Shown piece after piece: positions 1,276 through 63,077 of a stretch of DNA of 64,000 bases. Where the stretch lies: the NCBI GenBank assembly GCA_000004985.1, contig GG738850.1; one strand, 5' to 3'. Below the pieces are notes generated by a model. That model made no database searches. It was not told the DNA's origin and was given only the letters and a program-made list of their open reading frames with translations. The number at the start of each line of letters is the position of its first letter. Within the stretch, counting starts at the first letter, position 1. Source of the stretch: Naegleria gruberi (taxonomy: Eukaryota). The translations under genes and the position numbers were made by a program.

Positions 1276-2446
1276 ATGATGATAATTAGCTGTTCATGTA
1301 ATTTGATTATTGACAGGAATCCGATAATCACTCCTGGAATGCCAAAAGTTTTGGCAGATAGATTACGATATCTAGAATCCATTAAAAAAGCCAAAGGTAT
1401 TAAAATTGCTAATGGATCAAAAGCAGCAACTAACGAATTTCCATTTATGGTATCTCTTCAGTATCAAGCAAGTAGTTCGAGCGTTCCTTATCATTTCTGT
1501 GGTGGATCAATTATTAATAAGCGATATATCATGACAGCAGGTAAGTTTTGATATGACTTTTGACATTTTTAACATTGTGAACTAGCTCACTGCATGTTCG
1601 ATGACACTAATGTAAAATTGACACCTTCTACCATTGTGGTTCTTGCAGGAGTCAACTATAACACCATTTCTACATCAAGTTTATCTGGAAATTACGCAAA
1701 AGGCAGCTCAATTACAGTTCATACAAGTTTCAGCTCGAAAACACTTGCAAATGACATTGCAATTATTTATTTAGATAGAGATTTGACAATTGATGGAACA
1801 ACTACACGTCTGGCTTACATTGAATCAGGTTCAGTTCCAATCCCAACTGCATCCTCAAAGATTCTCGTAGCTGGTTGGGGTTACACTGACTCAACTGAGG
1901 TTGCTTCTGAAAATTTGTTAAAAGTTAATATTCCAATTGTTTCTGATACGATCTGTAATTCATATCCATTGAGTTTGGATATGGCTAAACCAAGACAAAT
2001 ATGTGCTGGTGATGGTGCTGGTCACGATTCTTGTAAGTTGTTGATTTTTACAAAATTTAATTGTAAAATATTTTGAATTTATTACAATTATTGGAAATTG
2101 TTGGAAAATAGGTAGTGGTGATTCAGGAGGTCCATTGTTTAGAGTAGTCAATTCAAACACCAAGGACTTTGCAGTTGTTGGATTGGTAAGCTACGGACCT
2201 GATGGTTGTGGAACTGGATACGAAACTAACAGAGGTGTCTATACGAATACTACCTATTATTTGAATTCGTTTATTAGAAGTGTTGTTTCATCGGTTCAAA
2301 CTGATACCTACAATTCAAATTCAAGCTATGTCTATACCGGAACAAGTGGTGGTTCAACCAAATCTGATGCAAGTTTAGGATTTGATTTGAAGAGTTTCGT
2401 ATTTATTGTTGTAATGTGTTTGGGAATGATCTTTTATGCCTTGTAA
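1276..2446 (+). CDS. Trypsin/chymotrypsin-family (S1) serine protease, 3 exons (about 1276..1540, 1596..2042, 2112..2446); introns 1541..1595 and 2043..2111
   Basis: Catalytic triad contexts TAAHC (His, spans intron 1), DIAII (Asp), DSC|SGDSGGPL (Ser, spans intron 2); GTAAGT donors and TAG acceptors keep frame; true 5' end or signal-peptide exon not resolved. Confidence 0.85.
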
Positions 2447-4909: not shown

Positions 4910-7900
4910 TTACAACTTTCTAATACCTAATGGATCTGGATCTGGATTTACCAAACTTCCGCACGATGAAACACCACCAAAGTATTTACATTGAGAAACA
5001 GTCATGGTTCTTACTCTGGTTTCAGCTGTTGCTGGTGCTCCAACAAATCTCATATTATCCATCAAGAATTCAATGAAATTAGTTTGATCTGGCAAGTACA
5101 AGATAATTCTGTGAATGTTTTGAATTGGTGCAAAACCAAGTTCAGAAAGTGGAATTCTCACACGAGTCACTGTATTTCCATCAATCTTTAAATATTGAGT
5201 GTGATTAGCTTGTGTAGTGATCTTGGAAAAGTCAACAACCTTTGTAACATTCAAATAACCAAATACAATTGTCAAACTTGGAACACTTCCAGTATTATTG
5301 ACAGTCTTGATAAAGAATTCAAAATATTGATAAATACTGGTATCTACATAAATCTTATTGGAACCAATCTTGTTGAATGAAATATTTCCCTTTCTGAAAC
5401 CAAAATGCATTGATGAGTTTCCACAAATAGCTGGTGCATAACTAGCATTAACAAATGTATTTCTAATATCAGCTGGAACATAGGCATACATGGACCATTC
5501 ATTGGTCAATTTTGGACCTTCACTATAAATTGAAATAACATGGGAAGAATTCTTCAAATTTAAAGCATCACACGGTTTAACATTTGAAACCAAAGGTGGT
5601 AAATTACAACTTGTTGATGTAGCATTGTTAATATAGAGTTGAGCTCTCAAATGTCCATTTGGATTTTGAGTAGTTGATAATTTCACAAACATTTTACCTT
5701 GGAGTAAATAATTCCATTCATCATATGATAAGGCATATCCAAATCTGCTTTGAGTATATGGAATAATCTTTGAGGTTGGTGTGGCAATATAATCTTCCTT
5801 TCCTGCAAGTCCAAATCCAATATCAATTGATGTGACAATAGCATTCAAATTGTGTTGAACAGTAAAATCAAGAGAAGCTGTTTTGGAATTCAAGAATGCA
5901 AAAACGTAACCACCTCCACTTGTTGAATTGGCAGCCAATGATTTCACACTTGCTTGTTGGCATGTTTCCAATCTTCCAACAAATCTATCTTCTCTCATTA
6001 ATGTCTTATATGTTGTTCCTGCATTGCTTGGATTGGAGAATTTTGATGGTGCACAAATACCTCTTGGACATGTGGCATTCAAATAAACAACACCATATGA
6101 GTAGTAATCAACAAAGCTATCAACAACTCTGTATGATGTTCTAGAAGCTTGATTTTGGATCTTCAAGTACAAATGTTCAGTAGCATCATCATAATAGTAG
6201 TAATTCTTAGGTTCACTCAACATGGTTGTAAAGTTTGCAGTTCTGGTCATGTTAATTGTTGTTGGATTCATGAAGAATCTAATGTTGAAAATTGTTCCTT
6301 TTGGATATTGAACAGCAACAACAATCCAATCATTTGCAGCGCTTGCATCAAGGAAGAAACTCAAATCTTTTGGTGTTGGAATGTCGTATGGCCAACGAAG
6401 CCCATAGAAACCTCTTGCTACCAAATTACTTTGCATATAAAAGTCACCACTGGAGCTTAATGCACCAATAACATTGGATTGGCGATTTCTCAATAAATCA
6501 ACAAGAATCATTCTTGGAACTCTCTTTCCTGAATTGATAATATCAGGTCTACTAATACCATCACTTCCAGTTGTGTTAACACTTGTTAAATTCCAATTCA
6601 AAACACGGAATTGAGCAAAAGATTCACCAAAGAATGGACATTGATAGGCATTCCATTCAGTTCTTGCTTGACATTGTGTGAATGTCATGGTTGTGTCATT
6701 ACCAGTAATCCAACCACCAATTGATGAAATACTTGTGATTGAGCCGTCTACATCCATCAAAGCAGTGGCCTTGTGATTCTCATAATAAGTTGGATGATTC
6801 CAAGGGAAAACCATATATCTGTTTGCATTAACAAACTTTAAATTGGCATATCTATTTCTGGATTGATGTTTAAAGTAATTATTCAATGAAGATAAGGAAC
6901 CTGCATATTTGAATGAATCAGTAACAAAGTTAATAAAAGTGATATTTCTCAAATATTGTGGACCACCATTATCATAAGTTTCATAACCCTTAATCAAATC
7001 CAAATTGGAACTAATATATTGACCTGGTCTTGTTCTATTTCCAAGATCAATCTTTGGTCTGTATGAAAATTCACCAACATTTTCAGATTCACCAATAAAA
7101 GTACTATCATGAATGATACTTGGTCCTGGTGGAGAATTCATGGCAATTCTATTATCAGTTAAGAATAAATTTTTGAAACGAAGTAAACCACCACGTGCCC
7201 AAACACCATATCCTCTATTCTTATAAGCAATAAATCCATTGTAAAGTGCTTCAACAACACCTGAAGGATAATAACCAGCAAGTTCTGTACTTCCATCAGC
7301 TTTTTCCATATCATCAATGTGAAGAGCATTTCCTGATGAACTGTGACCAACATTGTTTTCAAATGGTTTTGGAGGAGCAGTTCTTGGATTAATAGAGCCA
7401 GCTGCGTATCTGTTTGCACTCAATCCAGTTGGGAATGTTGGCATTGTAAACCAAAATGGGAAACGACCACCAACTGCATGATTTCCAATGAATGTATTAT
7501 TTGGATTAGTAATCCAAAAAACTGAAACATCAGAATCAGATAAAATGATTTGACGAGGATTTTCTCTTGAGATTGGAATTGGATCAACTCCCAAATTATT
7601 GTTAAATTCATTTCCTACTTCAGATCCATCTTCCAAGAAGTACATATGACCAAAAGCACGATAACAAACATTATTCTTCAATAAAATATAATTAGTATCG
7701 TGAACAACATAACATCTTTGGAAACTGTGATGAACTGTATTATCCTTAACTGTGAAATTCAATCCAAATGGTTTGTTTTGTAACAAGTGGAAATGGAAAC
7801 TATTAATGAATAATAAGTAATAGTTAAATAAATCATTAAAAACAATATTAAATACAAGTTAAATAAAAATGATTACCAACACCAAACATACCTATATCTT

Positions 7901-8895
7901 CCCATTAAACCTTGTTGACCAAATCTTGTAATTTCAACACCTTCCATATTAAATTTATCAACCAAACGAATAATAAAGTGACCACCAAAAAGTGAACTTT
8001 CAGATGAATCATCACCTCTGAAAACAATTCTTCTTGTTAATAAACCAACTTCTGCACGAATCTTTCCATCAACACTTGCAAAGTGAGTATAATTCAATGC
8101 TCTATCTAAAATAATGGTCTTGTTTCCATTCAATAATTGAATAATCTTTCTCTCTTCATTTTGATTTGGAAATCGTTCACCACGAATCCAACCCAATGAA
8201 GCATTCTTTTCAACTCTGTAATCATATAATTCACCATAATCTGTTGAAGCAATAACAATTGAATCACCAACTCTCCATTGAACAGCTTCTTTCAATTCAA
8301 GTTGTGAACTTCCTTTGGTGGAATTCTTGATAATTTCACTCCAACTTGGACCATCAACTTTACCATAAATTTGAACAATAGATCCACTCAAAAAAGCAAC
8401 ACCTTTAGAACCCAATTTACTTCCATCGAATGGATCACTACCAATGTCATTGATAGAACTATTGACACGATCACCATACAATGTCAAGATAACTTTTGAA
8501 GTGATTGGACAATTTGAACTACCCATAATAAAACTACCATTTGATTCAACTCTAATGAAATTCAAATTCAAATTGAGATCAATATTATCAAAAATTAAAG
8601 AACCACCTGATTTAACAGTGATTGAACGTAATTTGTTTGGAGGAGAAATATTTAACTTGACAGCTTTTGTAATAACAATATCATAATTGGCAACATTCCA
8701 ACCAGTTAATGTGTTAAAATTGACCAAACCAACTTGTTGATGAGGACATTGACCTTCCACAATAATACTTTCAATCAATACACACAATAAAATTGTGCTA
8801 ATTAATGAAAGAATTACTCTTGTACTACAATGTTTGTTGTAATACATATTGTTTGTTTTTTTCAAAGTGAGAAATAAAGTGTCTCTTCCATTCAC
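4910..8895 (-). CDS. G8-domain protein of the CEMIP/TMEM2 (KIAA1199) family, 2 exons: complement(join(4910..7800,7892..8895)), intron 7801..7891
   Basis: Exon 1 has signal/anchor (ILSLISTILLCVLIES) then G8 domain (GWNVANYDIVITKAVKL...GGSLIFD...SNGSFIMGSSNCP...LTLYG); family motif GQQGLMGRY|SFHFH straddles a GTATGT...AATAG intron; downstream right-handed beta-helix-like Gly/Asn-rich repeats. Confidence 0.75.
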
Positions 8896-9831: not shown

Positions 9832-11274
9832 ATGACATTATCTTCAGCAGCAGAAACATCAGCAACATTAGAAATTTCTGGTAATTTGATTAAAAATTCA
9901 TCGGAATATGTGAGGGAAATGATAAATAATTTCGGAAGCACCAACAAGACAACACAACTATGTTCTATTGGTGGTGGATTATTGGGAAGTTTATTCATGT
10001 TAAGGTGGATTGTTGGAGTTTCTAAAAAGTCAAAGGAAAAGAAGAAGGAAATTGAAAGGATTTTCAAGGAAATTCAACAAGATTGTAGACAACAAGTCAA
10101 TGAATTGGTCAAGAAGGAAAATGTCTTGTCAAAGAAACAGAAAATTGGTGTCTTGATTGTTAATTTGGGAACTCCTTCACAAGCCACTCATCATTATGTT
10201 TACAGATATTTGTCTCAATTTTTAATGGATGGTCGTGTGATTGATGTGAGCTACTTGTTGAGATTTTTATTGGTGAGAGGAATTATTGTTCCATTCAGAT
10301 ATAAGAGATCGACTCGATTCTATCAAGAAATTTGGAAGAATAAGGATTATTCAAATTCAGAATGTTCTCCACTCAAATATAATACCACTAGTTTGGTTTC
10401 TAAAGTGAGTGAAAATTTGAAAGGATTGAATGATGACAATTGTGAATTCCAAGTGGAAATGGCCATGAGATATCAAGAACCTTCAATTGAAAGTGGTTTG
10501 AAAAAGCTTGAAGGTTGTGCACATATTGTAGTGGTGCCACTCTTCCCACAATATGCAAGTGCAACCACTGGATCTACTCATGAAGAATGCATGCGTGTTG
10601 TAATGAAATGGTTGACTATTCCAAGTTTACATTTTAATAGTACATTCAATTTGATGGACATGTTTATCAAATCCAATGTGAAGAGAATTCAAGAAGCTCT
10701 TCAAAGAACCAAGACTGAAAGAGAAAATCAACCATTCGATCACCTCCTTCTCACTTATCACAGTCTTCCAGTTCGTCATGTCACTCAAGAATTCCAAGAA
10801 AAGAAGAGTTTACAATATTCCTACTATCAACAATCCTTTGAGACTAGTGTTGCAATTTTGAAAGAATTATTCAACTGCACAGCAGAAGAATTAATCCAAG
10901 ATGAAACCAATGTTGGATGGTTTACTTACAAGAGAAGTCAATCTGATTCAAGTGATGACTATTCCTCCAATTTCACACCAACTCTCCAAATTTCCACATG
11001 TTTCCAAAGCAGATTAGGTAAGGAACCTTGGCTTGAACCTTACACCTCAAAAACTCTTGGACTCTTGGCAAAACAATCAAGTCGTGTCCTCATTGCTTGT
11101 CCATCATTCACTTCTGATTGCATTGAAACAGATCACGAATTGGAAATTGAGGAAAAGGAAGAATTCTACTTGAAGGGAGGTAAATACATGGCTGTTGCTC
11201 GATGTGTCAACGATGATGACCTATTTGCCAATGGATTGACTGATTTAATTGCTAAATATAAACAAGTTTTGTAA
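9832..11274 (+). CDS. hemH: Ferrochelatase (protoheme ferro-lyase) with N-terminal extension (probable organellar targeting/anchor)
   Basis: LIVNLGTP (cf. LNMGGP), VVVPLFPQYASATTGS (cf. YPQYSCSTTGS), LLTYHSLP (catalytic His context), C-terminal Cys cluster ACPSFTSDC. Confidence 0.85.
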   Translation: MTLSSAAETSATLEISGNLIKNSSEYVREMINNFGSTNKTTQLCSIGGGLLGSLFMLRWIVGVSKKSKEKKKEIERIFKEIQQDCRQQVNELVKKENVLSKKQKIGVLIVNLGTPSQATHHYVYRYLSQFLMDGRVIDVSYLLRFLLVRGIIVPFRYKRSTRFYQEIWKNKDYSNSECSPLKYNTTSLVSKVSENLKGLNDDNCEFQVEMAMRYQEPSIESGLKKLEGCAHIVVVPLFPQYASATTGSTHEECMRVVMKWLTIPSLHFNSTFNLMDMFIKSNVKRIQEALQRTKTERENQPFDHLLLTYHSLPVRHVTQEFQEKKSLQYSYYQQSFETSVAILKELFNCTAEELIQDETNVGWFTYKRSQSDSSDDYSSNFTPTLQISTCFQSRLGKEPWLEPYTSKTLGLLAKQSSRVLIACPSFTSDCIETDHELEIEEKEEFYLKGGKYMAVARCVNDDDLFANGLTDLIAKYKQVL

Positions 11275-20589: not shown

Positions 20590-21548
20590 TTTGTTATTAG
20601 ATTAGGTTTCGAATAATTAGTTAGGTTTAGTTTGCAATACACACTAGTTTACCAGATTCTTCTTCTGATTCGAAATCGATTTCCTTGCTATATGAGAAAG
20701 GTAACAAGCAAGTGCTGTTGCGTTTGTTTTTTTAATGTTGTTTCTCACCGAATTTTATTCTAATCTAGTATGTATTGTAAGTCGACCTTCGCAATAATTT
20801 TAAATGGATAGTTCTGCAAATGGACTTTTTAAACAACCGAATTATTCCTCTCAAAGAGTTTGAGAATACAAATAAATGGATAAATAATTTGGCTTAGGAA
20901 AACAATTATTCGAAAGGTTTAGGATAAGACTTTGCAGTGACTCGCTCTGGTGAAAATTACTGTTGTATAAACATCTACTTTGGTCACTTAACCATAAAAT
21001 AGCTAGATAAAAACTAAACTTACCATAAAAAATTGACGAAATAGTTACCTAAACAGGAAGTGTATCACTTTACAATCCTGTTCAAAACAAATAAAGATTA
21101 AAATTGATAAAGCGGTGGTGTAGAGAAAACCTGCCAATAATAATGGTGATATCCTTACTTTGGAAGAGAAACATCACTACAGTTTAGTTTGCAGTGAAAA
21201 ATTATCAGAAAGTGATTCGTATTCGAATGCTATCACTTCAATATCCTCCATGAATTTTGAAAACGAATCCAAACTTTCCACCTGAAAAATTGATTCACCG
21301 CTTTTCGTCAGTGCAAAAATCTCACACTTGAAATTGATTCCACAAATTCACGTCCATATCCATATTTGGTATTGTTCATGGTTGCCCAAAAATACTAATA
21401 GTTTCCCATTCGAATGATAAAATATTTAAAATGGTTGACGTTTGCAAAATGACCTTTTTTGGTTTCTAACTTTTTAGAATTCATTTAATTCAATAAACGG
21501 TTATTCACTGTAGTTTTACAATTTTCTTTGAACTTTATTTAAATTTTG

Positions 21549-24500
21549 TTAAATAACGAACAAAATACAACCCAAAACAAAAATTAACACTGCTTTCGTA
21601 ACATTGCAAGAGGTAGCTGCCAATGAAACTGTTGGTATGATAATCTTTGGTAATTCAACAGTAACTCTTTCAATTGAAGTTCCATCGGCTGCAAATGTGG
21701 AAATTGAAGCAACTGGTGTTGAGCTAGTTCCAGAATTAACCTTAACTTTCATTGTGATGGTGTAACTTGCTGGTGAGAGAGTTTGACCGAGAGTTGCATT
21801 CAATTTGTTGGAGGCATCAACATTCATTGAAGTAAATTGAATGACAATACCTTTTGAATCTGTTATAATGAAATTATCTGAAAGTGCACGTTTACTTTCA
21901 GATGTAAGTGTGAATGCTGCAGGAAGTGACATGACCAATGAACCTCCCATTGGAATTGGCTTTGTAATCACCATGGCTGTCTTGACACTCACCATTCCAC
22001 CAACAGGAACATAGGCAGTAGTACTTGTTTGTGGAGTAACAGGATTAATTGGATTGGTAGAATTATTGTTTGTAGAATTTGTGTTGGAGGTGTTATTGGC
22101 AATGGTTGAATTGTTGGTGGATGTACCATTGTTAACTACTGGATTAGTGGATGAATTAGTGGAATTGTTTCCATTATTGTTAATGACATTGTTGTTTGGA
22201 TTTGTGGAATTTGAATTGGTAGTATTGGAAGTGGATGTGTTGTTTCCATTCATTGAATTATTTCCACCAGAATCTGTTGTATTAGTTGTTGATGTATTAT
22301 TTGTTACAATAGAACTGTTACTATTTGTGGAGGAATTATCAACATTTGTACCATTACTAATAATTGAGTTATTTCCACTTGTTGTATTATCAACATTAGT
22401 ATTGTTACCATTGTTAACATTTGTATTATTACTGGCATTGGTATTATTGCTAGATGTAGTAGAATTGTCTACATTTGTGCTATTATTTCCATTGTTAACG
22501 TTAGTATTGTTATTGATGTTAGTGTTATTGCTGTTAGTAGTAGAATTATCAATATTTGTATTGTTATTATTATTAACATTAGTATTATTACTATTTGTGG
22601 AGGAATTATCCACATTAGTATTATTATTATTAGCATTGGTAGAATTATCAAAGTTAGTGTTATTATTACTACTACTTGTTGAATTATCAACATTAGTAGC
22701 ATTATTATTAAGACCTGGATCAGTATTATTATTCGAAGGAGAATCATTGACTGAAGATACAGTAAAAGTACCAGTGCTCTTAACAGTTAATATATAACTA
22801 CCACTGGATTGATCTTGTGTTGCAGTGCAGGTATCATCTGCAACATAATCACCAACAGAATCGTCCCATTTCAAACATTGATAAGTGGTTGTTGAAATTG
22901 TTCTCAATCCACGCAATTTTCTTGTAGAGCTACTGATTGAGGAATCAATTTGTAACTCGGCAATGCTTTCGGTATGATTCACATTCAATGCTTGATTCAA
23001 GTGTGAAATGACAAATTCAACAGCATTGGCCAATGCCTTGGAACAATTTGGTTTGAAAACATTAAGAGTAATATCAACTGAATCAGTAACATTGGACAAA
23101 GTTTGTAATAGATTGAACTTTTCACTCAATTTGAAACCATTTTTACCAGATATAGTTTCATTCAATCCATTTAAGAACGACTTGGTAACCTTTCTTCCGT
23201 AGGCCTTAACATCCTTATTAAGTAAAATAGTGGCTGGCATATCTGGAACCTTTTGATTTGAAGCAATATTGACCAATGAAGTATAAACTTGTTTAAGTTT
23301 TTCAGTTGGTTTCTCAGTTTTCAATTTTGAAGGTAAAATAGATCTGACACTTGAAGTAGTAAACAAAGTATCAGCTACTTGTTGAGTTTGTGTAAGAGTT
23401 TCATCAGATACTGGAATTGAACTATCCAGAGCTGTTGTTGTAGTTGAAATTAAAGTATCAGCAATTAAATTTGAAGTGTTTGATGACATCATGTCCATAT
23501 TTTCAGTTGCAATATCCAAAATAGTTGCTGTTGAAGCAACAAGAGATTCGGTTGGACTAGTAATAGATGCTTCTTGTTGAGTATTATTCAACATGGTGTT
23601 AATAACTGAATCAGCAACTTGAGCCAATTCTTGTTGAACCGTTTCACTGTCATTTGATTGAGAGTAATTAGCATTGGCAATGGATTGAATTAAAGCAGCA
23701 CCATCTGAAACTGGAATATTACTTTGATCAGCAATAGCATTTGCAGTTGCAACAGTTTCGTCCAAAGTTGCCTCGGTAACATTTACAGTTGTAATGGCAC
23801 TCGAAGAAGCACCCATTGCATCATAGACAGTTACTGATACTTCATTCACACCTACGATACCCAACTTTAATGAATAGAAACTAGTCTCAGAACGTGACGA
23901 AACAATGGTCCTTACTGAATTGGAATTTGGACCTCTTGTACTAAATTCATAAGTTAATGGAAGTTGCGCATCAGTCCAACCATTACCACATGAAACCTTA
24001 AAATCTGTCAATAGGGAAACACCAGAGCTTGGCTCAACGAGTAATTCACCAACTGTTGGTGGTGAGTTCACAGTGAAGAACACTTCAGCAGTACCTTCTT
24101 TATCGATAGTTGTGTTTCCAATAATAACAGTATCCTTAATGGTAATCTTCATTTCATTGGAGCTACCTGGAGTTAATAATTTTGATGGAATGATAATGTA
24201 TGCCTTTGTTACTTCCACACCAGTTAAATCAATCGATGAAGATTCCCATAAGAATGATTTGGAATCACTGAGTACAACTGGTTGAATTAACAATGCTCTC
24301 AAAACCAAATCCTTTGATGGATTGACAACTGATAAATCAACGCCGTCCATAGGCATAATTGACGAGGTAATAACAGTGTCCTTTGAAATTTCCAAAACGG
24401 TAACCTTAAGAGAATCAGTAGCAGTTCTGTTTTGCTTTCTATAAGTAACAGTGAAAAGATAGGAACCAGGATCCATTAATTGACTCATTTTCATGGTATT

Positions 24501-27500
24501 TGTAATATCGAGTGGGAATGAACCATTTGTACAAACGTCACCACTGTCCAAATCAAGACAGTCAATTGCAATGGATTGTACCTCATTGGTTTTTGATGGA
24601 TCTTGAGCAATAACTGAGAGTGAAACTGGATCTTCCATCGATTGAATTACATCTCTCAATGTAAATGCTACTTTCAATGCTGCAGAGGAAGCAGTTACTT
24701 TAAATGGCAAAGAAACATCTTGAACTCCGTCTTGTCTTGCAGTGAGCATGAAATAATATTCACCTTCCATTGGAAGAACAGTTCTTCCAGGACCAATAAT
24801 TAATCTTCCATCCTCAACAATGAAATTAGTAATGTTAGTAACACTGCTATAATCACTATTCATAGAGTAAATGAATTTAACACGACCTCTTCCCTTATTG
24901 CAAGCTCTATTGGAATAGGAAATGACTGGTGTAATGATGTTTAATAATCCCAAAGTATTAGAAATTGAAACTCCTTCCTTAATTGACAAATTAGGAATAG
25001 AATCTTCACTGACAACAAAGGAAATTGTTTGAGTTGAAGTAATTTCTGGAGCCAATGGACTACTGACAGTAACTTGAATAGAATAAGTTCCATTACTCAT
25101 ATTATTAGTATCCAAGATTAAATTTGGTTTGTTGAAAGTGGAAATCAAAGAGCTGAGGGTTAAAGAATCATCGGTGGTTGGTGCAGAAACAACTTGCCAT
25201 GCGAATTTCAATGGTCTTCTATCGAATGATTGAGAATTGGCAGCACTAATGAACAACTTATCGCATCCACGTGACACAACTGATTTTTCAACGTTGATTT
25301 GTGCTTCAGGTGATTGTGGTTTGAAGGATCCTTGCTTGATGGTTATGGAAATAGATTCAGATGATTGTGGATAAACGCTTAATGATAAATTTTGACCAAT
25401 TGAAATAGATGAACTATATCCAAGGATAATAGTTAATTTAGATTCACCATTCAACATACACATTGCTCCCTTTCCAATAAAATCAATTGAATCTGGTCTA
25501 ATTAAATCTTGACATGGAATAATTGACTTGATAGTGGAATAAACAGTACCATAGACTATATCAGCCTTTTCAGATAATTCAAAGTTATCAACAACGCTGA
25601 AATCACATTTGCTTCCATACCATCCTTGGGCACATTGTGAACAATTTGCACCAATTGAGTGACCTGAACATTTACAAGTACCATCATTCAAACAAATTCC
25701 TCTATTAGAACATGTCAATGCAGGAGAACATTGAATTTCACAATCAACACCAACAAATCCATTTGCACATGATTGACAGAAAGGTCCAGTAAATCTCTCT
25801 TCACATAAACATTTCAATTGTTGAGTACAATTACCACGATTATTACAAGTGTCTGAACTACAACGTGGAGTTTTACATTCTTCCCCATTGAAGGAAGGTA
25901 AACAGGTTGAACAATAAGTGGAATTATCATAATTACCATAGCAAACACATTGATCCTTAGCAATACATTTTCCTTTTTTGGAGCAGACATTAGAATCATA
26001 TCTTCCAACTCCATTACAAGTAAAAGTAGCACAATTTGGACCAGTATATCCATCAGTACATGCACATGTATTAGGTTGTGTACAAATGCCTCTTCCACCA
26101 CATACATTCTTATCATTAGCAGGCAATTGACCACAAATTGGAATTTTACAATCAACACCAGTATATCCATCCTTACAATTGGAACATGATTGGCCTTCAA
26201 AGTTACCAGTACATGTGCATTTGCCTTCCATTGAACATTTACCACGGAACGAACAACCACCTTGAGTTTCAGTTCTTCCATTACATGTTGGAATATCACA
26301 CATTTCACCTGAAAATCTTTCTTTACAGATACAATTGTCTGGTCCAATACATTTACCATTTCCAGAACACACTGATGGATCAGTGGATGCTTTTTGGAAA
26401 CAAACTAAGCTTTGACATCTATCTCCTGTATATCCTTGATTACAAATGCATGTATCTGTACTACCACATTTGCCACGACCTGAACATGCAAGTGGATTTT
26501 CTGAAGGTAAGCCAAAACATTTAATAGCTTGAGTGGAATTGGCTGAGAAACAATCATTGGTGGAATTCAGTGTTGAACAATAATCGGTAGCCATGTTAGA
26601 AGATAATCCCATTTCACTTGTTACAATATTCTTACAAGCATTGTTACACAATGGTTGAGATAAAACATTGGTTGAATTGATTGAACAAGATTTGAATGTT
26701 TTCAAACAGGATACTCTTAAAAGACCCTTTTTGCATGAATCTCCACAATTCTTGTATCCAACACTGTCAAGTAATTCAGAATTCTTCTTGTAAAGTGTTG
26801 TAATTTTTGTGGAAACTGACAAGGCCATTTTAGATTGAAAATCTGCTGGACTTGTTGAAATCACTTGACTCATTAAATCATCAGTGCTAATCATGTAATT
26901 AACATGATCAGAACATCCACTTAGTAAAGTCTTTGGAGGAATGATACATTGAGCAGCAGGTTTAAAATATTGACAATCTGTACCATAATAATTAGATGGA
27001 CAAATTCTTTGACAAGTTGTTGAATCATCAGACAATTGGAAACCTTCTGCACAATCAGTACATGGTCTATTGTTTCCCAATGTAGTATAACCCTTAGTAC
27101 AAGTACAATAAGGAGTATAGGCAGATGAATAAGAACATGTACCATTTCCACAACCTTGCTTTCCACAATTTGGAACCTTTGTAATACATATTCCATTAGC
27201 ATATATTAAATTATCAGAGCATTTCAAACAAAGTGGATACACCATTCCTTCGATAGCACATTTATCACAACTTGCACCACTATATTTGGTATTAGAGCAA
27301 GCTGAGCATGGAGCTGACATATTCACAGTCATGTAGCCAGTATTACAGACACATTGAGCAGTTGAGAGTGTAACTGCTTTACAAGCACCATTTCCACAAT
27401 TAGGTGTTGGACACACTGGTAATTTTACATATGGTCTATCTAATACATTTGGTTTAGGTGAATAATTACAAACAATCAAGGTAGCTCCATTCAATTCTGG

Positions 27501-28032
27501 CTTGTTGAACACTTTTGCACAGGTAGCTCTGGAACACCCGACTTTGGTGGAAGCTGCTGAGACAACTTGAATATAATGTTGGCAATCACCACTCTTTAAA
27601 CATAAGCTTCCTTAATTGTAAATCATAAACACTTACAGAACAATAATTATTTGTAAAGTCATATTTAGAAGATTCTAAAGTCCATTCATTCACAATATCC
27701 ACCACTGACATATTTCCCTTCATACTGACATGAATATTTACGCCCAAATTGAGAGAATTACTTGATGGTCCTGCAGCACATTTAGTAAGCCAAGAAGCTG
27801 CCCTAGATGCCAATTCATCACTCCATTCCAAGGCTGCTAACTTGTTAAGTGGAGTCGGAGCCACTGATAAACGTGCGGAATTGTGGGCATTCAAAATGGC
27901 TGTCTTTTCTGAAGAAGTTAATTCCGCAGCCCTTACTTGTTGTTGTTGATTCATCATCAACATGGATACAACCAAAAGCATCACCAACACAAGGCTAACT
28001 TTGTGATGATGGTGCGGATAAATGATGTTCAT
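21549..28032 (-). CDS. Giant (about 2120 aa) secreted/membrane protein: signal peptide + CAP (SCP/PR-1) domain + about 20 EGF-like Cys repeats + REJ/PKD-like module + N/S/T-rich linker + C-terminal hydrophobic tail; complement(join(21549..27593,27637..28032)), 43-nt intron 27594..27636
   Basis: CAP motifs spread over both exons (AILNAHNSARL, LEWSDELASRAASW, then after intron QHYIQVVSAASTKVGCS...LIVCNYSPKPN); GTAAGT...AAAG intron is phase 0; tracked 'start' at 27512 is GTG; C-terminus ...AVLIFVLGCILFVI (TM or GPI signal). Confidence 0.75.
22060..22760 (-). repeat. Coding low-complexity array: degenerate repeats of (N-N-[ST]-N/T-N-V-D-N-S-T) inside the giant CAP-EGF gene
   Basis: Direct repeats of gttaataatg / attattact-type units on the + strand; translate to NNNTNVDNSTT... 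on the minus strand. Confidence 0.6.
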
Positions 28033-29080: not shown

Positions 29081-30667
29081 ATGCAACTCTCTTCACTGCT
29101 CGTTGCCGTCGCATTGATGATTGCGTTGATGATTTGCGGATCATCGGCTGATGCATCATCATCGGAGAGAGTTTTTTTATTAAAGAGAGATCCAGTATCC
29201 ATGCTCTCTAGAAAACAATCCAATAAGTCTACAAGAATGGCCTCTGCACTTCCACCATACAAGACTTTATATTTCGATCAAAAATTGGATCATTTTGATT
29301 TTACCAATGACAAGACTTTTAAACAACGTTATTTGGTTTGTGATTCCTTTGTTGGAAAGATGACACCATCTACTCCTATCTTTTTCTATACTGGTAATGA
29401 GGGAGATATTGTGACTTTTTATGAAAATACTGGATTGATGTTTGACACTGCTCCACAATTCAATGCCTTGATTATTTTTGTTGAACATCGTTATTATGGT
29501 GTCAGTAATCCTTTTGGACCTGTTAATTCATTCACTCCTGAGAATATCAAGTGGTTGAGCAGTGAACAAGCTCTTGCTGATTATTCTTATTTCATTACTG
29601 AAATGTTTGGATTGGATGAAAAGAGAACTAACCCAGTTATTGCCTTTGGAGGATCTTATGGTGGTATGCTGAGTAGTTGGTGGCGTATGAAGTACCCTCA
29701 CATTGTGGACGGTGCTATTGCTGCTAGTGCTCCAATCTTCCAATTCACTGGTTTGACTGCTCCAAATGTTTACAATCAAATTTGTACTGAAGATTTCAAA
29801 AAGTCAAGCAATTTGGCCAAGTACCATGAAACTTGTGACGCTGTCATTAAGAATGGTTTGAGCATTTTGAATCAATACTATCAAAACAATAATCCTCAAA
29901 TTTTGCAAAAGCTCTCTTCTCAATTCAGGATTTGTTCACCTGGTATTAGAACTTCAGCAGATGTAAATCAATTGATCAGTTGGTTGACTCAAGCTTACAA
30001 TACCTTGCCAATGATTGATTATCCATATCCAGCCAACTTTTTAATGCCTCTCCCAGGTTATCCAATTCAAGTTATTTGTGACAGAATTAGTACCATTATG
30101 GCTTCTGAAAAGGTCACTACTGATACCTATCTTAAGGCTGTTTTGGAAGGTGCCAATGTTTATTATAATTATACTGGAACTAGTACTTGTAATAATTTGA
30201 CTCAACCAGATTCTCCAAGTTTGGGTGATGACGGATGGGAATATCAAACATGTAATGAAATGGTCATGCCAATTGGTAATTATCCTCAAACTGACATGTT
30301 CATTCCTGCTCCTTGGGATCTCCAAGCATGGATTTCTTATTGTCAACAAAAGTGGAAGGTTACTCCAAGAACCAACTGGGCTATTACTAACTATGGTGGT
30401 AAGAGAGCTATTTTGGAAGCTACTAATATTGTCTTTTCAAATGGTGATTTGGATCCATGGCATGGTGGTGGCGTTTTGCCAGGAATGAAAGTTAATGAAA
30501 AGGTTAAGGTTGTTTACATTGAAGGTGGTGCTCACCATTTGGATCTCAGAAGTTCAAATCCTTTGGACCCACAAAGTGTCAGATTGGCCAGAGCTTTGGA
30601 AGTTAAGGAAATTACCGCTTGGCTCAATGAATTCTCTGCCAAGAGAGGCCTCAAAATGAAATATTAA
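29081..30667 (+). CDS. S28-family serine carboxypeptidase (lysosomal Pro-X carboxypeptidase / DPP7-like) with signal peptide
   Basis: YFDQKLDHFDF, IFFYTGNEGDI, FVEHRYYGVS, nucleophile motif AFGGSYGGMLSSWW, SEQALADY. Confidence 0.85.
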   Translation: MQLSSLLVAVALMIALMICGSSADASSSERVFLLKRDPVSMLSRKQSNKSTRMASALPPYKTLYFDQKLDHFDFTNDKTFKQRYLVCDSFVGKMTPSTPIFFYTGNEGDIVTFYENTGLMFDTAPQFNALIIFVEHRYYGVSNPFGPVNSFTPENIKWLSSEQALADYSYFITEMFGLDEKRTNPVIAFGGSYGGMLSSWWRMKYPHIVDGAIAASAPIFQFTGLTAPNVYNQICTEDFKKSSNLAKYHETCDAVIKNGLSILNQYYQNNNPQILQKLSSQFRICSPGIRTSADVNQLISWLTQAYNTLPMIDYPYPANFLMPLPGYPIQVICDRISTIMASEKVTTDTYLKAVLEGANVYYNYTGTSTCNNLTQPDSPSLGDDGWEYQTCNEMVMPIGNYPQTDMFIPAPWDLQAWISYCQQKWKVTPRTNWAITNYGGKRAILEATNIVFSNGDLDPWHGGGVLPGMKVNEKVKVVYIEGGAHHLDLRSSNPLDPQSVRLARALEVKEITAWLNEFSAKRGLKMKY

Positions 30668-48678: not shown

Positions 48679-51600
48679 TTAAACACTATAACTTAACATT
48701 TCCACTTGAGCGTTAGGATCCCCAACTACTGGAACCTCATAGACAGGACCCTTTCTTCTCTTACAACAATCCCACTTCAATTTTAATAAGACAACAATAA
48801 AAACAAAGACTGTACATAATAAACAAGTGAAACCAAGAATTGTTCCAAGAATTATACCCAAATATCGATCTTCTGCTATTGGTGTGGAAACCTTTACAAC
48901 CTTTTCAAGAATATTTTCAATAATCATAGTGCTTGTTGTAGAGTTGCATTTACAAGTTGCGGTAGAGTTGGAGCTCACCACAACAACACAGGATGGATCA
49001 ACTCCAACAGTGAAATTCTTAAATGTTCTACATAATAATTCTGAAGATCTATACACTTTTGTAATTACATTTTTGTTTGATTGAGTGGATTTAGTTGTGG
49101 AAATCAAAGAGTTGCTTGGATAATTCTTGACGTTAGATATTGTCATATTATAAGTGATTGGAGTCAATACATCTGCAGTGGATTCCAATAATTCAAAGAA
49201 TAAGACATTGCTTCTAAGAAACATGGTAGAAGATATTGATGTTTCAATCTTAGATGTGTTCACAGTGATGGTGCTATCACTTAACACCACCTTAGCGGCA
49301 ACAGTGTCAGAAATACCAAATATATCGTTGGAGGAAATTGAAATAAAGGAAATAGACTTTCTGTTAGATTTTTCGCTCAAGTAGAGAGGCATTTCTGGAG
49401 GCAACAAAACAACAGCACCTTCAAGTGGTGATGTTAATCTTGATTCAAAACCTGCTCTAAAGAGCTTGTTGGATGAAATTGAAGCAAAGACTGTCTTCAA
49501 TTGTAAATCTCTTTCACCAATGTAAATACCTCTCAACATTAAATTAGAAACACGTTTCAGCATTGTGTAGAGAGAACTGAGTTGGTCTGATGCTTGTAAC
49601 TGATTGTATGTAATATAATTGTAGATAGAATTCAAGATATTGGTCAATAACTTGTCAACTCCAAAAGGAACTCTAAGCTCCTTATTATATTCGCAGAATT
49701 TAAGTAAGGTGTTAACAATATCATAGGCCTTTTCCATACTATGTCCATCCAATTCATCATACTTTTCAATCAATGAATCCAAACCGTATGCTTGAAGAGT
49801 CAAGTAGGTTTCTGTAATAATTTCATATGGATTTCTAGCGTCGAATGTTTGAATAAATTCATCCATCAAGGCAACTCTGATTTCCTTATAGGCAGCAAAA
49901 TCTTCCTCTGTAACACTGCAATCTGCCTTTTCAAATCCAGATGCACATGAACATCTATTGGTTTCAGTAATAAGAGTTCCTCCATTTTGACAAACGAGCT
50001 TCACATCTCTTCTTCTTGCACCACTGGTAATCTTTGTTAGCATACCATCAGCGACTCTTGAAATTGTTGCAGAGTTGAAAACCATCTTGGCTGTATCACC
50101 ATCTTTGAGTGAATTTTGAATTGTACTGTAAGAGGCAACCTTCTTTTTAACTTCCACGACACTCTTTACAGCTGCAAGATCAATGGTAATGTCCTTTTTG
50201 ATTTCAGTGTAGGCACCAGTGGATTTATCTGTTATTCTAATGTATGTGGTGACGATCTTGTTAGAAAGTGGTGTGTATGAACATGGCAGCTTGGTTGAAT
50301 AGACTTCTCCGTTTTGATAAAGTGGAATATTAGCACCTGATTTGTCATCAATAAAACCATAGACCACTTGAAGGGTCTTTTGAGCGTTTTGACAATTGGT
50401 ACATGCGAATGAGAAACTAGTTTCTAAGGCAATACCTGATGAAGGAGAAACAGTGCATGGACAAGCTTGAGGTGGAGCAGCAATTTGGAAAGAGTATGAA
50501 TAGACAGCACTCAATCCATTTCTAATATCAGTTACCTTCAAGGACAAGACATAGGTAGCTCCATCTTCCAACGTTGCAGGATCAATAACAACAGAGTTGG
50601 ATAGTGTTGGGCTGGAAGTCATTTTAGAGATAACTGCTTCACCATTTGAAAGTATCTTTGAATTCAAAGTCCATTCTCTGCTAATATACTGATCAATTCC
50701 AACAGATTCTCCATTGGCAGTGACTGCAAGTTGCAAGTTAACAATATCTTGTTTCAAAATGACAGTCTTAGTTGGGACAACTGAAATAAGTGTAACGGTT
50801 GGAGGAACTTTCTTACTTTCAGGGAAAACAAAATCAAGAGTAGTTTGAACTGATCTTATTCCCTTAACAACCGAGAGGGTTAATTTAAGAGTTGGCATCG
50901 AGTTGTAAACTTTGAGGTCAGCTGAGGAAATTAAAGGTCTAACAGTTCTATCATTTGAATACGAGATAAGGGCAGAATCAATAGTTGTTCCACACCCAAC
51001 ATTATTAGTTGCATCGAAGCAAGACCATGTCCATGTTTCAGCCTCAGATGTGACATCAGGATCAACAAGATTGACAACAATAGTACCCATATCGGAAGAT
51101 ACTTCATCACTATATAAAATTAAGCTCAAAGGGCTTGGTCTAACAGTAATCTTAATGGTGTCGGATGCAGTCGAAAGAGGATTCACCACTGAAGTTACAG
51201 TGATTTTGAATTCATAGACGGCTTCAACCAGACCAGAAAAGTGGGTGACTGCCAAGTTGTTAAACTTGTCTGTTTCAAAAGTTGTAACTGGACCTGATAA
51301 TTGTTCCCAGACAATGTTTAATTGTTGGTTTGGATAGAAGCAACTTGGAAGCTCCAAATGCTTCTTAATGACAACAGGAGATTCATACTTGATAATAGTT
51401 CTGTCATTGAAACCAATAATGTATAGCACTGGAAGTGGAACGGCTGCCTTTGAAACACTCCAAATACTCATAGTACTGACCTTTCCAGATATTGAGCTTT
51501 CTACTTGAAGACCGAACTTGTACTCACCAGGATATTGCATTGCAATGTAATCAAGAGACAAAACTGAGGTGTTAGGCATAGAGACAGAAAGGAAATTACT

Positions 51601-62600: not shown

Positions 62601-63077
62601 TACTCCGTAATGATGAATGTGTTGGGAGTAGATGGATTTGAGTGCTGAATTATTTACAACTCCAATCCTGTTGCCAATCAATTGGCTATTATCCAAACTT
62701 CTTCTCATATTATTATTGTTAATTATATTTAAATTATTTAAAGTTTTGGAGGGTGGATCCTCTCCACTACTACTACTCATCGATTGTTGTTGTTGTTGAA
62801 TGAGAAGTGTGGATGGAAGTTTGGGCGAAGAGGGTGAATTGTTATTTGTATTAGAAAATTGTTGCTGTTGTGATTGTAAAATTCTGGGTGATGACGATGA
62901 CTGAGAAGAAACTCTCGGAGAAGATGTACCTGAATTATTGTTCATCATTTCCTTCTCAAAATTGCTGTGAAAATCTTCACAATGGTTTGTTTTCAATTTT
63001 TTGGTTGTTGTCCAACAACTGAAAATTTGGTCACAACTCTGAGATGAGAATTGGTTTTGGTTAGTACTTGATTCCAC
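59685..63077 (-). CDS. SLC6/NSS-family Na+-coupled transporter, 2 exons: complement(join(59685..61084,61157..63077)); long His/Gln/Ser-rich N-terminal cytoplasmic extension
   Basis: TM1 signature GSSVGLGDLIRFPYLVYTYGGGGFLIPYIFCLVVLGLPLTLLEFSLGV (cf. [22 protein letters not shown]); GTAAGT...AACAG 72-nt intron, phase 1, links ...DKFGEN|ALADFDKLF; the first ATG is well inside the tracked ORF, whose own start codon is GTG. Confidence 0.8.

What the first reader, a model, noticed from the sequence alone, without database searches (positions are those of the whole stretch)
27512..28032. CAP (PR-1/SCP) domain fused to an EGF array through a 43-nt phase-0 intron
The tracked 148-aa ORF (27586..28032) and the 1987-aa ORF are one gene. 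The CAP domain is split by the intron: ...DFTNNYCS|gtaagt...ttaaag|SGDCQHYIQVVSAASTKVGCS...LIVCNYSP. The second half, holding the HYTQVVW-like and VCNY motifs, lies in the big exon, whose tracked 'start' is only a GTG. A CAP head on a giant EGF/REJ-like stalk is an unusual combination. The intron is very short at 43 nt.
Basis: seen in the sequence. Interest (0 to 1): 0.6.

Follow-up and report, generated by a model that had tools for sequence, protein, structure and literature searches.

The report
Naegleria CAP-EGF-REJ surface protein gene
A 43-base intron in the amoeba Naegleria gruberi joins a small CAP/PR-1 exon to a 6-kb exon, making one 2146-residue surface protein; the public annotation has the intron but cuts the protein off after 187 residues, so this is a useful gene-model correction, not a new kind of biology.

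Summary
The window is Naegleria gruberi NEG-M. On the minus strand, exon 1 (28032..27637, 132 codons) is followed by a 43-nt GTAAGT...AAAG phase-0 intron (27636..27594) and a 6045-nt exon (27593..21549). Only this splice completes the Pfam CAP domain: 54.1 bits over HMM positions 1-117. Unspliced it scores 29.4 bits, and with the only other frame-restoring splice (136 nt) 26.9 bits, both covering positions 1-85 only.

The junction is already in GenBank. EFC48807.1 ('predicted protein, partial', 187 aa) equals residues 1-187 of the joined protein. It stops at the end of the CAP homology, where the DNA has no stop codon. No public protein matched the remaining 1959 codons (EGF array, REJ domain, N/S/T-rich linker, GPI-like tail).

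The intron is short but not exceptional: a 45-nt intron in the same window restores the TAAHC motif of a trypsin-like gene. CAP followed by EGF is known (human CLEC18), and so is a CAP head on a GPI-anchored stalk (yeast Pry3). I did not find CAP with REJ among the 150 closest CAP relatives.

The best reading is a secreted, probably GPI-anchored surface protein that displays a CAP domain with a degenerate metal-binding tetrad. No RNA evidence was available. Interest is modest.

The parts
27637..28032 (-). Exon 1: ATG, signal peptide and the first two thirds of the CAP domain (132 codons)
   Evidence: Pfam CAP HMM positions 1-85, 29.4 bits, when scanned alone.
27928..28032 (-). Predicted signal peptide (aa 1-35). 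The hydrophobic core is VSLVLVMLLVVSMLMM. The likely cleavage site is after VRA.
   Evidence: Hydropathy scan. The AlphaFold2 model has a helix at residues 9-28 ahead of the CAP fold. The cleavage site is inferred from the -3/-1 rule.
27594..27636 (-). 43-nt spliceosomal intron, phase 0, GTAAGT...AAAG, 26% GC
   Evidence: The same junction is used by the public model EFC48807.1.
21549..27593 (-). Exon 2: 2014 codons plus TAA, one uninterrupted ORF from the last third of the CAP domain to the C-terminal tail
27462..27894 (-). CAP / PR-1 / SCP domain (aa 47-176), interrupted by the intron
   Evidence: Pfam PF00188, 54.1 bits, HMM positions 1-117 of 117. PDB phmmer best hit is PR-1 9lyt, 5e-17. 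The top 30 Foldseek hits of the AlphaFold2 model are all CAP structures.
27429..28032 (-). Extent of the public partial model EFC48807.1 / XP_002681551.1 (187 aa). It ends at ...NVLDRPY, where the DNA has no stop codon.
   Evidence: tblastn of the CAP region maps to 27927..27637 and 27593..27429.
27051..27413 (-). Two EGF-like cysteine modules directly after the CAP domain (aa 193-313)
   Evidence: Cysteine-pattern scan. Pfam cEGF, 34.9 bits.
25605..26519 (-). Array of about seven teneurin-type EGF repeats (aa 491-795)
   Evidence: Pfam EGF_Teneurin 45.6 bits and EGF_2 33.5 bits. Pattern scan.
23754..24527 (-). Core of the REJ domain (aa ~1155-1412). Similarity to the paralog suggests the REJ-like region begins nearer aa 800.
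   Evidence: Pfam PF02010, 99.2 bits, two stretches. BLASTP to the in-window paralog.
21975..22721 (-). Asn/Ser/Thr-rich low-complexity linker (aa ~1757-2005), dense in N-x-S/T sequons
   Evidence: Composition by 100-aa block.
21552..21593 (-). C-terminal 14-residue hydrophobic tail AVLIFVLGCILFVI with no cytoplasmic extension, which resembles a GPI-attachment signal
   Evidence: It is the only hydrophobic segment besides the signal peptide. Sequence. The GPI reading is an inference.
21534..21551 (-). TAA stop (21551..21549) followed by AATAAA (21539..21534)

Best explanation
This is one two-exon gene of Naegleria gruberi. It encodes a 2146-residue secreted surface glycoprotein.

Shown by the sequence and the tools:
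- A 43-nt GT-AG intron must be removed to join exon 1 (signal peptide plus CAP HMM positions 1-85) to exon 2.
- Exon 2 starts with CAP positions 86-117 and runs without a stop through two EGF-like modules, a cysteine-containing spacer, about seven teneurin-type EGF repeats, a REJ domain, a helical region, an Asn/Ser/Thr-rich linker, a small C-terminal domain and a 14-residue hydrophobic tail.
- The public annotation (EFC48807.1) uses this exact splice but ends after residue 187, where homology to PR-1-type proteins ends. The other 1959 codons are left unannotated.

Inferred:
- The signal peptide is cut after about residue 35.
- The protein is heavily N-glycosylated (73 sequons).
- It is tethered to the outer face of the plasma membrane by a GPI anchor, or by a tail-less membrane span.
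- It holds the CAP domain at the far end of a long, stiff EGF/REJ/mucin-like stalk.

The CAP domain lacks two of the four metal-binding tetrad residues: the first His is missing and the Glu of the GEN motif is Val. It also has Ser in place of the Trp of the CAP1 motif. It therefore more likely acts as a binding module for a protein, sterol or other lipid than as a metal-dependent site. The whole molecule most plausibly serves adhesion or recognition of prey, substrate or other cells.

The confidence given applies to the gene structure and domain content. The functional reading is much less certain.
For: Organism and locus: nine of ten ORFs tested and two of seven sequences tested match N. gruberi NEG-M proteins exactly, on a 707,703-bp contig.

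Splice: canonical GTAAGT donor and AG acceptor, in phase 0. Only 43 nt or 136 nt restore the frame. The CAP score is 54.1 bits over the full HMM with the 43-nt splice, 29.4 bits unspliced and 26.9 bits with the 136-nt splice. Exon 2 alone carries HMM positions 86-117. Alignments to PR-1 and GLIPR1 cross the junction without a gap. The AlphaFold2 model of residues 1-187 (pLDDT 67) finds only CAP structures in its top 30. The public model EFC48807.1 has the same junction.

One gene: only about 17 residues separate the end of the CAP match (aa 176) from the first EGF-like cysteine (aa 193), in one open frame. The big exon has no ATG before residue 220 and no signal peptide of its own, yet it is a cysteine-rich extracellular-type protein. 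The ORF of 2014 codons in a 34% GC genome carries EGF and REJ domains. The in-window paralog has the same layout: a small first exon, a 55-nt intron and a giant exon.

Truncated annotation: the exact joined sequence and the first-ATG version are both absent from the collection. A 613-aa REJ-region query found nothing at E<=1. A full scan of 1.84 billion representatives returned only EFC48807.1 at 100% identity, covering query residues 1-152 only. EFC48806 and EFC48808 are the flanking minus-strand models.

Intron size: a 45-nt intron in the same window is verified by TAAHC restoration and a continuous Trypsin match to positions 1-218 of 220.
Against: No transcript evidence could be consulted, so splicing and the single long mRNA are inferred from sequence logic. 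The acceptor is AAG, whereas the other seven introns in the window end in TAG or CAG. No ortholog with this architecture was found in other organisms, so there is no comparative support. At 90% identity the CAP model clusters with no other sequence (1 member, 1 contig), whereas three of the nine matched neighbouring genes do have ENA or Logan cluster members; this gives no independent sign that the gene is sampled or expressed elsewhere. The GPI anchor, glycosylation and function are inferences only. The CAP domain is divergent (degenerate CAP1 and CAP4 motifs, 2 of 4 tetrad residues), so its activity is uncertain.
Confidence: 0.82

Rival explanations
1. There are two independent products. One is a small secreted CAP-only protein, as the public 187-aa model implies. 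The other is a separately transcribed or untranslated EGF/REJ ORF starting from an internal site.
For: The only public model stops at residue 187. No public protein covers the big exon.
Against: The DNA has no stop codon after residue 187, and the model is flagged 'partial'. The CAP C-terminus and the first EGF-like cysteine are about 17 residues apart in one frame, which leaves no room for a poly(A) site, promoter or start codon. The first ATG of the big exon is at residue 220, inside an EGF-like module, and it would give a cysteine-rich extracellular protein with no signal peptide.
Confidence: 0.06
2. The intron is not removed, or only rarely. The locus then yields a 148-aa truncated CAP fragment, and the large ORF is a relic.
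For: At 43 nt it is the shortest intron in the window, and it has the less common AAG acceptor. No transcript data were available.
Against: Read-through would delete CAP HMM positions 86-117, including the HY.Q and CNY motifs and three of the six cysteines. A 45-nt intron is clearly functional in the same window. A 2014-codon open frame with intact EGF and REJ domains is not expected in a relic.
Confidence: 0.04
3. The fusion is an assembly or recent rearrangement artefact, or a young pseudogene. A CAP gene fragment landed in front of a member of the EGF/REJ family and is no longer under selection.
For: The EGF/REJ family is locally duplicated and carries different heads. No ortholog with a CAP head was found elsewhere. 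The CAP motifs are degenerate.
Against: Both exons are intact and in register, the splice signals are canonical, all six CAP cysteines are kept, and the CAP score is well above the Pfam cut-off. Domain shuffling of this kind is the ordinary way such architectures arise, and it does not imply loss of function.
Confidence: 0.06

Closest known systems
EFC48807.1 / XP_002681551.1, 'predicted protein, partial [Naegleria gruberi]' (the existing annotation of this locus)
   Same: It is identical to residues 1-187 of the joined protein. It has the same ATG, the same 43-nt intron and the same junction NNYCS|SGDCQHY.
   Different: It ends at ...NVLDRPY, where the CAP homology ends, although the reading frame continues for 1959 more codons. 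It therefore misses the EGF array, REJ domain, linker and C-terminal tail.
Saccharomyces cerevisiae Pry3 (CAP superfamily, GPI-anchored cell-wall protein; PMC7340583)
   Same: It has an N-terminal CAP domain, a long Ser/Thr-rich region and a C-terminal GPI signal. The CAP domain acts at the cell surface, in cell-cell (mating) interaction.
   Different: Pry3 has no EGF or REJ modules. [quoted passage not shown] The GPI anchoring of the Naegleria protein is only inferred.
Human CLEC18A/B/C (CAP, then EGF, then EGF-like, then C-type lectin-like domain; PMC11103991), and P0024 (391 aa, CAP plus 2 EGF)
   Same: An N-terminal CAP domain is followed directly by EGF modules in a secreted protein.
   Different: These proteins have two EGF modules and are 400-450 residues long. 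The Naegleria protein has about nine EGF-like modules plus REJ and 2146 residues, and it has no lectin domain.
Polycystin-1 / PKDREJ / sea-urchin suREJ family (REJ-domain proteins)
   Same: The REJ domain scores well above the Pfam cut-off (99.2 bits) in a very large extracellular region.
   Different: No GPS/GAIN match was found. There is no PLAT domain and no multi-pass membrane region, because the only hydrophobic segments are the signal peptide and the last 14 residues. The family has no CAP head.
In-window paralog at 48679..55723(-), and the MMETSP transcript P0001 (EGF plus REJ giants)
   Same: Both have teneurin-type EGF arrays followed by REJ. The paralog is 27% identical over 982 residues and has the same gene layout of a small exon, a short intron and a giant exon.
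   Different: Neither has a CAP domain. The paralog ends in a transmembrane helix with a cytoplasmic tail rather than a bare hydrophobic tail.

Membership tests
CAP / SCP / PR-1 superfamily (Pfam PF00188) | Match to the family profile above the curated cut-off, covering the whole domain | tested here: met
   54.1 bits against a cut-off of 21.1, over HMM positions 1-117 of 117 at aa 47-176 of the spliced protein.
CAP / SCP / PR-1 superfamily (Pfam PF00188) | Three-layer alpha-beta-alpha sandwich fold | tested here: met
   AlphaFold2 model of aa 1-187: pLDDT 67, pTM 0.64. The top 30 Foldseek hits in the PDB are all CAP structures at probability 1.00, with target-normalised TM-scores of 0.26-0.65. 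The model has only moderate confidence.
CAP / SCP / PR-1 superfamily (Pfam PF00188) | CAP1-CAP4 signature motifs | tested here: inconclusive
   CAP3 (HNxxR) is present as HNSAR. CAP2 is nearly intact (LIVCNYSPKPNV). CAP1 is degenerate (QHYIQVVSAAS, with Ser where Trp is expected). CAP4 reads GVNI instead of G[EQ]N[ILV]. The motif definitions come from my own knowledge and from PMC10189770.
CAP / SCP / PR-1 superfamily (Pfam PF00188) | Tetrad of two His and two Glu that binds divalent cations (PMC10189770) | tested here: not met
   In the alignments to PR-1 9lyt and GLIPR1 3q2r, the first His aligns to Pro/Ser or to a gap and the GEN Glu is Val. The W..E Glu and the HY.Q His are kept, so 2 of 4 are present. 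This argues against metal binding but not against CAP membership.
CAP / SCP / PR-1 superfamily (Pfam PF00188) | Caveolin-binding motif (aromatic residues at positions 1, 3 and 8) in the loop used for sterol binding (PMC10189770) | tested here: inconclusive
   The loop reads Y-D-F-T-N-N-Y-C. Aromatic residues sit at positions 1, 3 and 7, and position 8 is Cys. The intron lies immediately after this loop.
REJ-domain / polycystin-1-like proteins | REJ domain (PF02010) | tested here: met
   99.2 bits against a cut-off of 25, in two stretches.
REJ-domain / polycystin-1-like proteins | GPS/GAIN autoproteolytic domain after the REJ domain | tested here: not met
   No Pfam hit at E<=1 in the last 783 residues. 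AlphaFold2 of aa ~1404-1760 gave pLDDT 48. Foldseek found only generic helical repeats, none at E<=0.001. A loose C..W..D..C ... TGTF resemblance seen by eye is not evidence.
REJ-domain / polycystin-1-like proteins | PLAT domain and a multi-pass membrane / channel region | tested here: not met
   The only hydrophobic windows are aa 8-30 and aa 2121-2146. There is no PLAT or PKD_channel hit.
EGF-repeat extracellular proteins | Six-cysteine EGF modules above the Pfam cut-offs | tested here: met
   EGF_Teneurin 45.6 bits (cut-off 24.3), EGF_2 33.5 bits (cut-off 22.1) and cEGF 34.9 bits (cut-off 26.6). The pattern scan finds about nine modules.
GPI-anchored surface proteins | N-terminal signal peptide plus a C-terminal hydrophobic signal preceded by small residues, with no cytoplasmic tail | not testable with these tools
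   The sequence features fit...LAATSCNVTK followed by 14 hydrophobic residues and then the stop. No GPI predictor or experiment was available.
Spliceosomal (U2-type) intron | GT-AG boundaries, restoration of the frame, and a length within the range used by this genome | tested here: met
   GTAAGT...AG in phase 0. Homology-verified introns of 45 and 79 nt, and further ORF-joining introns of 55-92 nt, occur in the same window.
Spliceosomal (U2-type) intron | Spliced transcripts observed | not testable with these tools
   No RNA-seq or EST resource was available. The only indirect support is that the public gene model uses the same junction.

The most novel reading that the evidence does not exclude
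CAP proteins (CRISPs, yeast Pry3) and REJ proteins (sea-urchin receptor for egg jelly, PKDREJ) are each tied to gamete or mating-cell recognition in opisthokonts. A Naegleria surface protein that joins the two on one polypeptide could be a cell-cell (mating-type or kin) recognition receptor in an organism whose sexual cycle has never been observed. It would also show that a polycystin-1-like REJ ectodomain with swappable heads existed as a free-standing surface module outside animals.
Probability: 0.06. Interest if true: 0.6.

Novelty: new variant of a known kind. Interest (0 to 1): 0.3.

Why it matters
In practical terms, the reference annotation of N. gruberi, which comparative studies of early eukaryote evolution rely on, lists this locus as a 187-residue CAP fragment. 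It appears to treat about 5.9 kb of intact coding sequence as intergenic. Giant single-exon surface-protein genes of this family may be systematically under-annotated there, which would distort counts of EGF, REJ and CAP proteins in Heterolobosea.

In biological terms, the gene adds a CAP-EGF-REJ architecture to the catalogue of CAP superfamily proteins. It also gives a non-opisthokont example of a CAP domain displayed on a long surface stalk. That could be used to test whether surface display, rather than the metal-binding tetrad, is the conserved aspect of CAP function. None of this overturns current understanding.

Tried and rejected
- Exact-sequence look-ups of the joined 2146-aa protein, the first-ATG version of the big exon and the 148-aa read-through ORF were all absent from the collection. 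A look-up of encoding contigs for a neighbouring N. gruberi protein found nothing, so that index seems not to hold this genome, and it was not pursued.
- The word-indexed homolog search with 1750 aa returned only one distant MMETSP transcript and missed the self-hit EFC48807.1. A negative from that tool alone is therefore weak. I relied on the shorter queries and on the full HMMER scan.
- A metagenome contig scan for relatives of residues 36-797 found 55 pattern matches, none confirmed.
- Literature searches for Naegleria with CAP superfamily, REJ domain with CAP domain, and Naegleria with REJ found nothing relevant.
- I tested a GAIN/GPS domain after the REJ domain, prompted by a motif seen by eye in the target and the paralog. 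Pfam found nothing, the AlphaFold2 model was poor at pLDDT 48, and Foldseek was non-specific. I rejected the idea as unsupported.
- The alternative 136-nt in-frame splice is rejected because it removes the CAP1 motif and drops the CAP match to HMM positions 1-85.
- The afdb50 fold library was unavailable.
- Bacterial promoter and terminator scans, and the phage, plasmid and E. coli collections, were not used because the window is eukaryotic.
Full report
**Where the window comes from.** Nine of the ten ORFs I tested from across the window are identical, residue for residue, to annotated proteins of Naegleria gruberi strain NEG-M on a 707,703-bp contig. Examples are ferrochelatase EFC48669.1 at 9832..11274 and lysosomal carboxypeptidase EFC48673.1 at 29081..30667. 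Two of seven further sequences tested also match. The window is 34.5% G+C and gene-dense.

**The observation.** On the minus strand, the ATG at 28032 opens a frame that runs 132 codons to ...DFTNNYCS. A GTAAGT follows at 27636. The sequence GTAAGTGTTTATGATTTACAATTAAGGAAGCTTATGTTTAAAG is exactly 43 nt (27636..27594). After it, the text reads SGDCQHYIQVVSAASTKVGCS...LIVCNYSP and continues without a stop to the TAA at 21551..21549.
- Unspliced, the first frame stops 16 codons later at 27588..27586. That is the 148-aa ORF.
- The two ORFs are in different frames, so only an intron whose length is 1 modulo 3 can join them.
- A systematic scan of donor/acceptor pairs found just two possibilities within 260 nt, 43 nt and 136 nt.
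- The 'GTG start' at 27512 comes from how the ORF lister picks starts. The frame is open back to a TAA inside the intron, and its first ATG is residue 220 of the joined protein, inside an EGF-like module.

**Is the splice real?** Four independent lines of evidence say yes.
1. *Domain completion.* Pfam CAP (PF00188) matches exon 1 alone over profile positions 1-85 (29.4 bits). It matches the first 44 residues of exon 2 alone over positions 86-117 (17.4 bits, below the cut-off). It matches the 43-nt join over positions 1-117 of 117 in one stretch (54.1 bits, E=3.4e-14). The 136-nt alternative falls back to positions 1-85 and 26.9 bits.
2. *Alignment to solved CAP structures.* The joined domain aligns with plant PR-1 9lyt (E=5e-17), human GLIPR1 3q2r (7e-15), triflin, SmVAL4, P14a and Pry1. 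The alignments run across NNYCS|SGDCQHY without a gap. For example, PR-1 reads SNLCIGGECRHYTQVV there.
3. *Fold.* An AlphaFold2 model of residues 1-187 has moderate confidence (pLDDT 67, pTM 0.64). It gives a helix/sheet order typical of CAP, and its top 30 Foldseek hits in the PDB are all CAP proteins.
4. *The public annotation.* EFC48807.1 / XP_002681551.1, 'predicted protein, partial', is 187 aa and is identical to residues 1-187 of my joined protein, junction included.

I had no access to transcript data, so splicing itself remains an inference, although a strong one.

In the same window, a trypsin-like gene on the plus strand has a 45-nt intron (1541..1585, GTAAGT...CTAG). Removing it restores the catalytic TAAHC motif. 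A 79-nt intron (2033..2111) restores C-S-GDSGGP. The spliced protein then matches Pfam Trypsin continuously over positions 1-218 of 220 at 154 bits. Other ORF-joining introns in the window are 55, 64, 72 and 92 nt, plus one unverified candidate of 202 nt. The published mean of 203 bp for N. gruberi, and the 30-bp minimum intron length that the N. fowleri authors chose for read mapping 'based on an assessment of predicted genes', are both in PMC8296547. The 43-nt intron is thus at the short end of a normal class. Its only slightly unusual feature is an AAG acceptor, where the other seven introns use TAG or CAG.

**One gene or two?** The last CAP residues (…VCNYSPKPNVLDRPY, aa 173-187) and the first EGF-like cysteine (aa 193) lie a few codons apart in the same uninterrupted frame. 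That leaves no room for a stop, a poly(A) site, a promoter or a start codon.
- On its own, the big exon would encode a cysteine-rich, N-glycosylated, extracellular-type protein with no signal peptide. Exon 1 supplies one. The hydrophobic core is at aa 12-27 and the likely cleavage site is after VRA at residue 35.
- A paralog 21 kb away (48679..55723, minus strand) has the same layout of a small first exon, a 55-nt intron and a giant exon.
- I therefore put the single-gene model at roughly 0.8-0.85.

**State of the annotation.** EFC48807.1 ends at ...DRPY. That is where PR-1-type proteins end (compare 9lyt, which ends ...GQRPY). It is not where the DNA has a stop, hence the flag 'partial'. The minus-strand models on either side are EFC48806.1 (20017..20589) and EFC48808.1 (31021..32103), so no consecutive accession is left for the big exon. 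Three searches agree:
- Neither the joined protein nor the first-ATG version exists in the 15-billion-sequence collection.
- A 613-residue query from the REJ region found nothing at E<=1.
- A full HMMER pass over 1.84 billion cluster representatives, with residues 36-330 as query, returned only EFC48807.1 at 100% identity. That hit covered query positions 1-152 only.

One caveat applies. The word-indexed search failed to list EFC48807.1 even though it was contained in the query, so negatives from that tool are weak on their own. The unindexed scan does not share this weakness. My conclusion is that about 5.9 kb of intact coding sequence (21549..27428) is missing from public protein sets as sampled here.

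**Anatomy of the protein (2146 aa).**
- Signal peptide: aa 1-35.
- CAP domain: aa 47-176.
- Two EGF-like modules: aa 193-313.
- Cysteine-containing spacer: aa ~326-480.
- About seven teneurin-type EGF repeats: aa 491-795.
- REJ domain: Pfam 99.2 bits, core at aa ~1155-1412. Similarity to the paralog starts nearer aa 800.
- Helical region: aa ~1430-1600.
- Asn/Ser/Thr-rich low-complexity linker: aa ~1757-2005, holding 36 or more of the 73 N-x-S/T sequons.
- Small C-terminal domain, then a 14-residue hydrophobic tail with nothing after it.

The signal peptide and the tail are the only hydrophobic segments, so the protein has no internal membrane span. The tail, preceded by small residues (LAATS), looks like a GPI-attachment signal. 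The trypsin-like gene in the window ends the same way. An AATAAA lies 10 nt past the stop.

**The CAP domain in detail.** All six cysteines expected of a PR-1-type domain are present at positions 85, 131, 136, 152, 157 and 174. Cys131 and Cys136 flank the splice junction.
- CAP3 (HNSAR) is intact and CAP2 (LIVCNYSPKPNV) is nearly intact.
- CAP1 is degenerate (QHYIQVVS, with Ser for the usual Trp).
- CAP4 reads GVNI, with Val for Glu.
- Of the His/Glu/Glu/His tetrad that binds Zn2+ or Mg2+ in other CAP proteins (PMC10189770), only the second Glu and second His are kept. This is seen in the alignments to PR-1 and GLIPR1.
- The loop that carries the caveolin-binding motif reads YDFTNNYC, close to the aromatic 1-3-8 pattern but not matching it.

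I therefore expect a binding role for this domain, not a metal-dependent one. That is an inference.

**How it probably works.** Shown: the gene structure, the domain content, the signal peptide-like N-terminus and the tail-only C-terminus. Inferred: secretion, heavy glycosylation, GPI or tail anchoring, and display of the CAP domain at the tip of a long EGF/REJ/mucin-like stalk. There it could bind a ligand on prey, substrate or another cell.

The nearest functional analogy is yeast Pry3, a GPI-anchored wall protein with an N-terminal CAP domain and a Ser/Thr-rich region. Its surface-proximal CAP domain interferes with mating (PMC7340583). [quoted passage not shown]

**Comparison with known architectures.** CAP followed by EGF is not new. 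Human CLEC18 proteins are CAP (aa 45-190), EGF, EGF-like and C-type lectin-like domain (PMC11103991). P0024, a 391-aa protein, is CAP plus two EGF domains.

I scanned 27 of the 150 closest CAP representatives against Pfam, covering all nine longer than 900 aa. The long ones are tandem multi-CAP arrays (up to 10 copies), CAP with fibronectin-III and zona pellucida domains, or CAP with CUB domains. One is a probable retroelement chimera. None has a REJ domain.

Conversely, the relatives of the stalk that I could find have EGF plus REJ but no CAP. These are the in-window paralog, at 27% identity over 982 residues, and an MMETSP transcript of 2917 aa.

The protein is not a polycystin-1 family member in the full sense. 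It has REJ, but no detectable GPS/GAIN domain, no PLAT domain and no channel region.

Within the reach of these searches, the CAP-EGF-REJ combination is therefore unmatched. The survey covered only the top 150 of 3108 CAP hits and is not exhaustive.

**Verdict.** The finding is real and correctly interpreted in its structural claims. It is partly already known, because the intron and CAP head are annotated. It is partly a correction, because the annotated model is truncated and the giant body appears unannotated. As biology it is a new domain-architecture variant within the well-known CAP superfamily, produced by ordinary domain shuffling in a locally expanded family of EGF/REJ surface proteins. 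I rate interest at 0.3.

Noticed in passing
window 21549..27428 (-): About 5.9 kb of uninterrupted, domain-bearing coding sequence lies downstream of the 'partial' model EFC48807.1. It appears to be in no public protein model, so the reference annotation seems to treat it as intergenic.
   Followed up: yes
window 48679..55723 (-): This is a paralogous giant gene: exon 1 at 55300..55723, a 55-nt phase-1 intron at 55245..55299 (GTATGT...TAG), then a 2182-codon ORF. It carries EGF_2/teneurin EGF arrays, a K319L-like PKD domain and REJ (101 bits). Its N-terminal head gave no Pfam hit at E<=0.01. It ends with a cysteine motif (ATCKCNSTTSTMII), one transmembrane helix and a cytoplasmic tail of about 40 residues. 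Whether it is annotated was not checked.
   Followed up: partly
window 56102..59674 (+): EFC48676.1 (1190 aa) is an EGF-only protein, transcribed divergently from the paralog. Together with the target gene it forms a local cluster of EGF-rich surface-protein genes.
   Followed up: partly
window 1276..~2320 (+): This is a trypsin-like serine protease gene with a 45-nt intron (1541..1585) that restores TAAHC and a 79-nt intron (2033..2111) that restores GDSGGP. It ends in a hydrophobic tail (FVFIVVMCLGMIFYAL) like the target's, which suggests that GPI-type C-terminal signals are common among this genome's secreted proteins.
   Followed up: yes
window 22710..23780 (-), aa ~1404-1760 of the joined protein: After the REJ domain comes a helical region, followed by a motif that looks GPS-like by eye (CLKWDD...DDTC...KSTGTFTV). 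It aligns with a similar motif in the paralog. Pfam, AlphaFold2 (pLDDT 48) and Foldseek gave no support for a GAIN/GPS domain.
   Followed up: yes
window 59685..63077 (-) and 4910..8895 (-): A sodium:neurotransmitter symporter (SNF) gene is split by a 72-nt intron (61085..61156). A G8/CEMIP-like gene with a CHRD domain is split by a 92-nt intron (7800..7891). Both have GTAAGT or GTATGT donors and very AT-rich introns (17% GC).
   Followed up: partly
window 28003..28014 (-), aa 7-10: A run of four histidines (YPHHHHK) sits in the n-region of the predicted signal peptide. This is unusual for a signal peptide and remains unexplained.
   Followed up: no
(tool behaviour): The word-indexed homolog search with a 1750-aa query did not return the 187-aa self-hit EFC48807.1, which a 192-aa query found at E=3.5e-99. 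Negative results from long queries in that tool should be treated with caution.
   Followed up: partly
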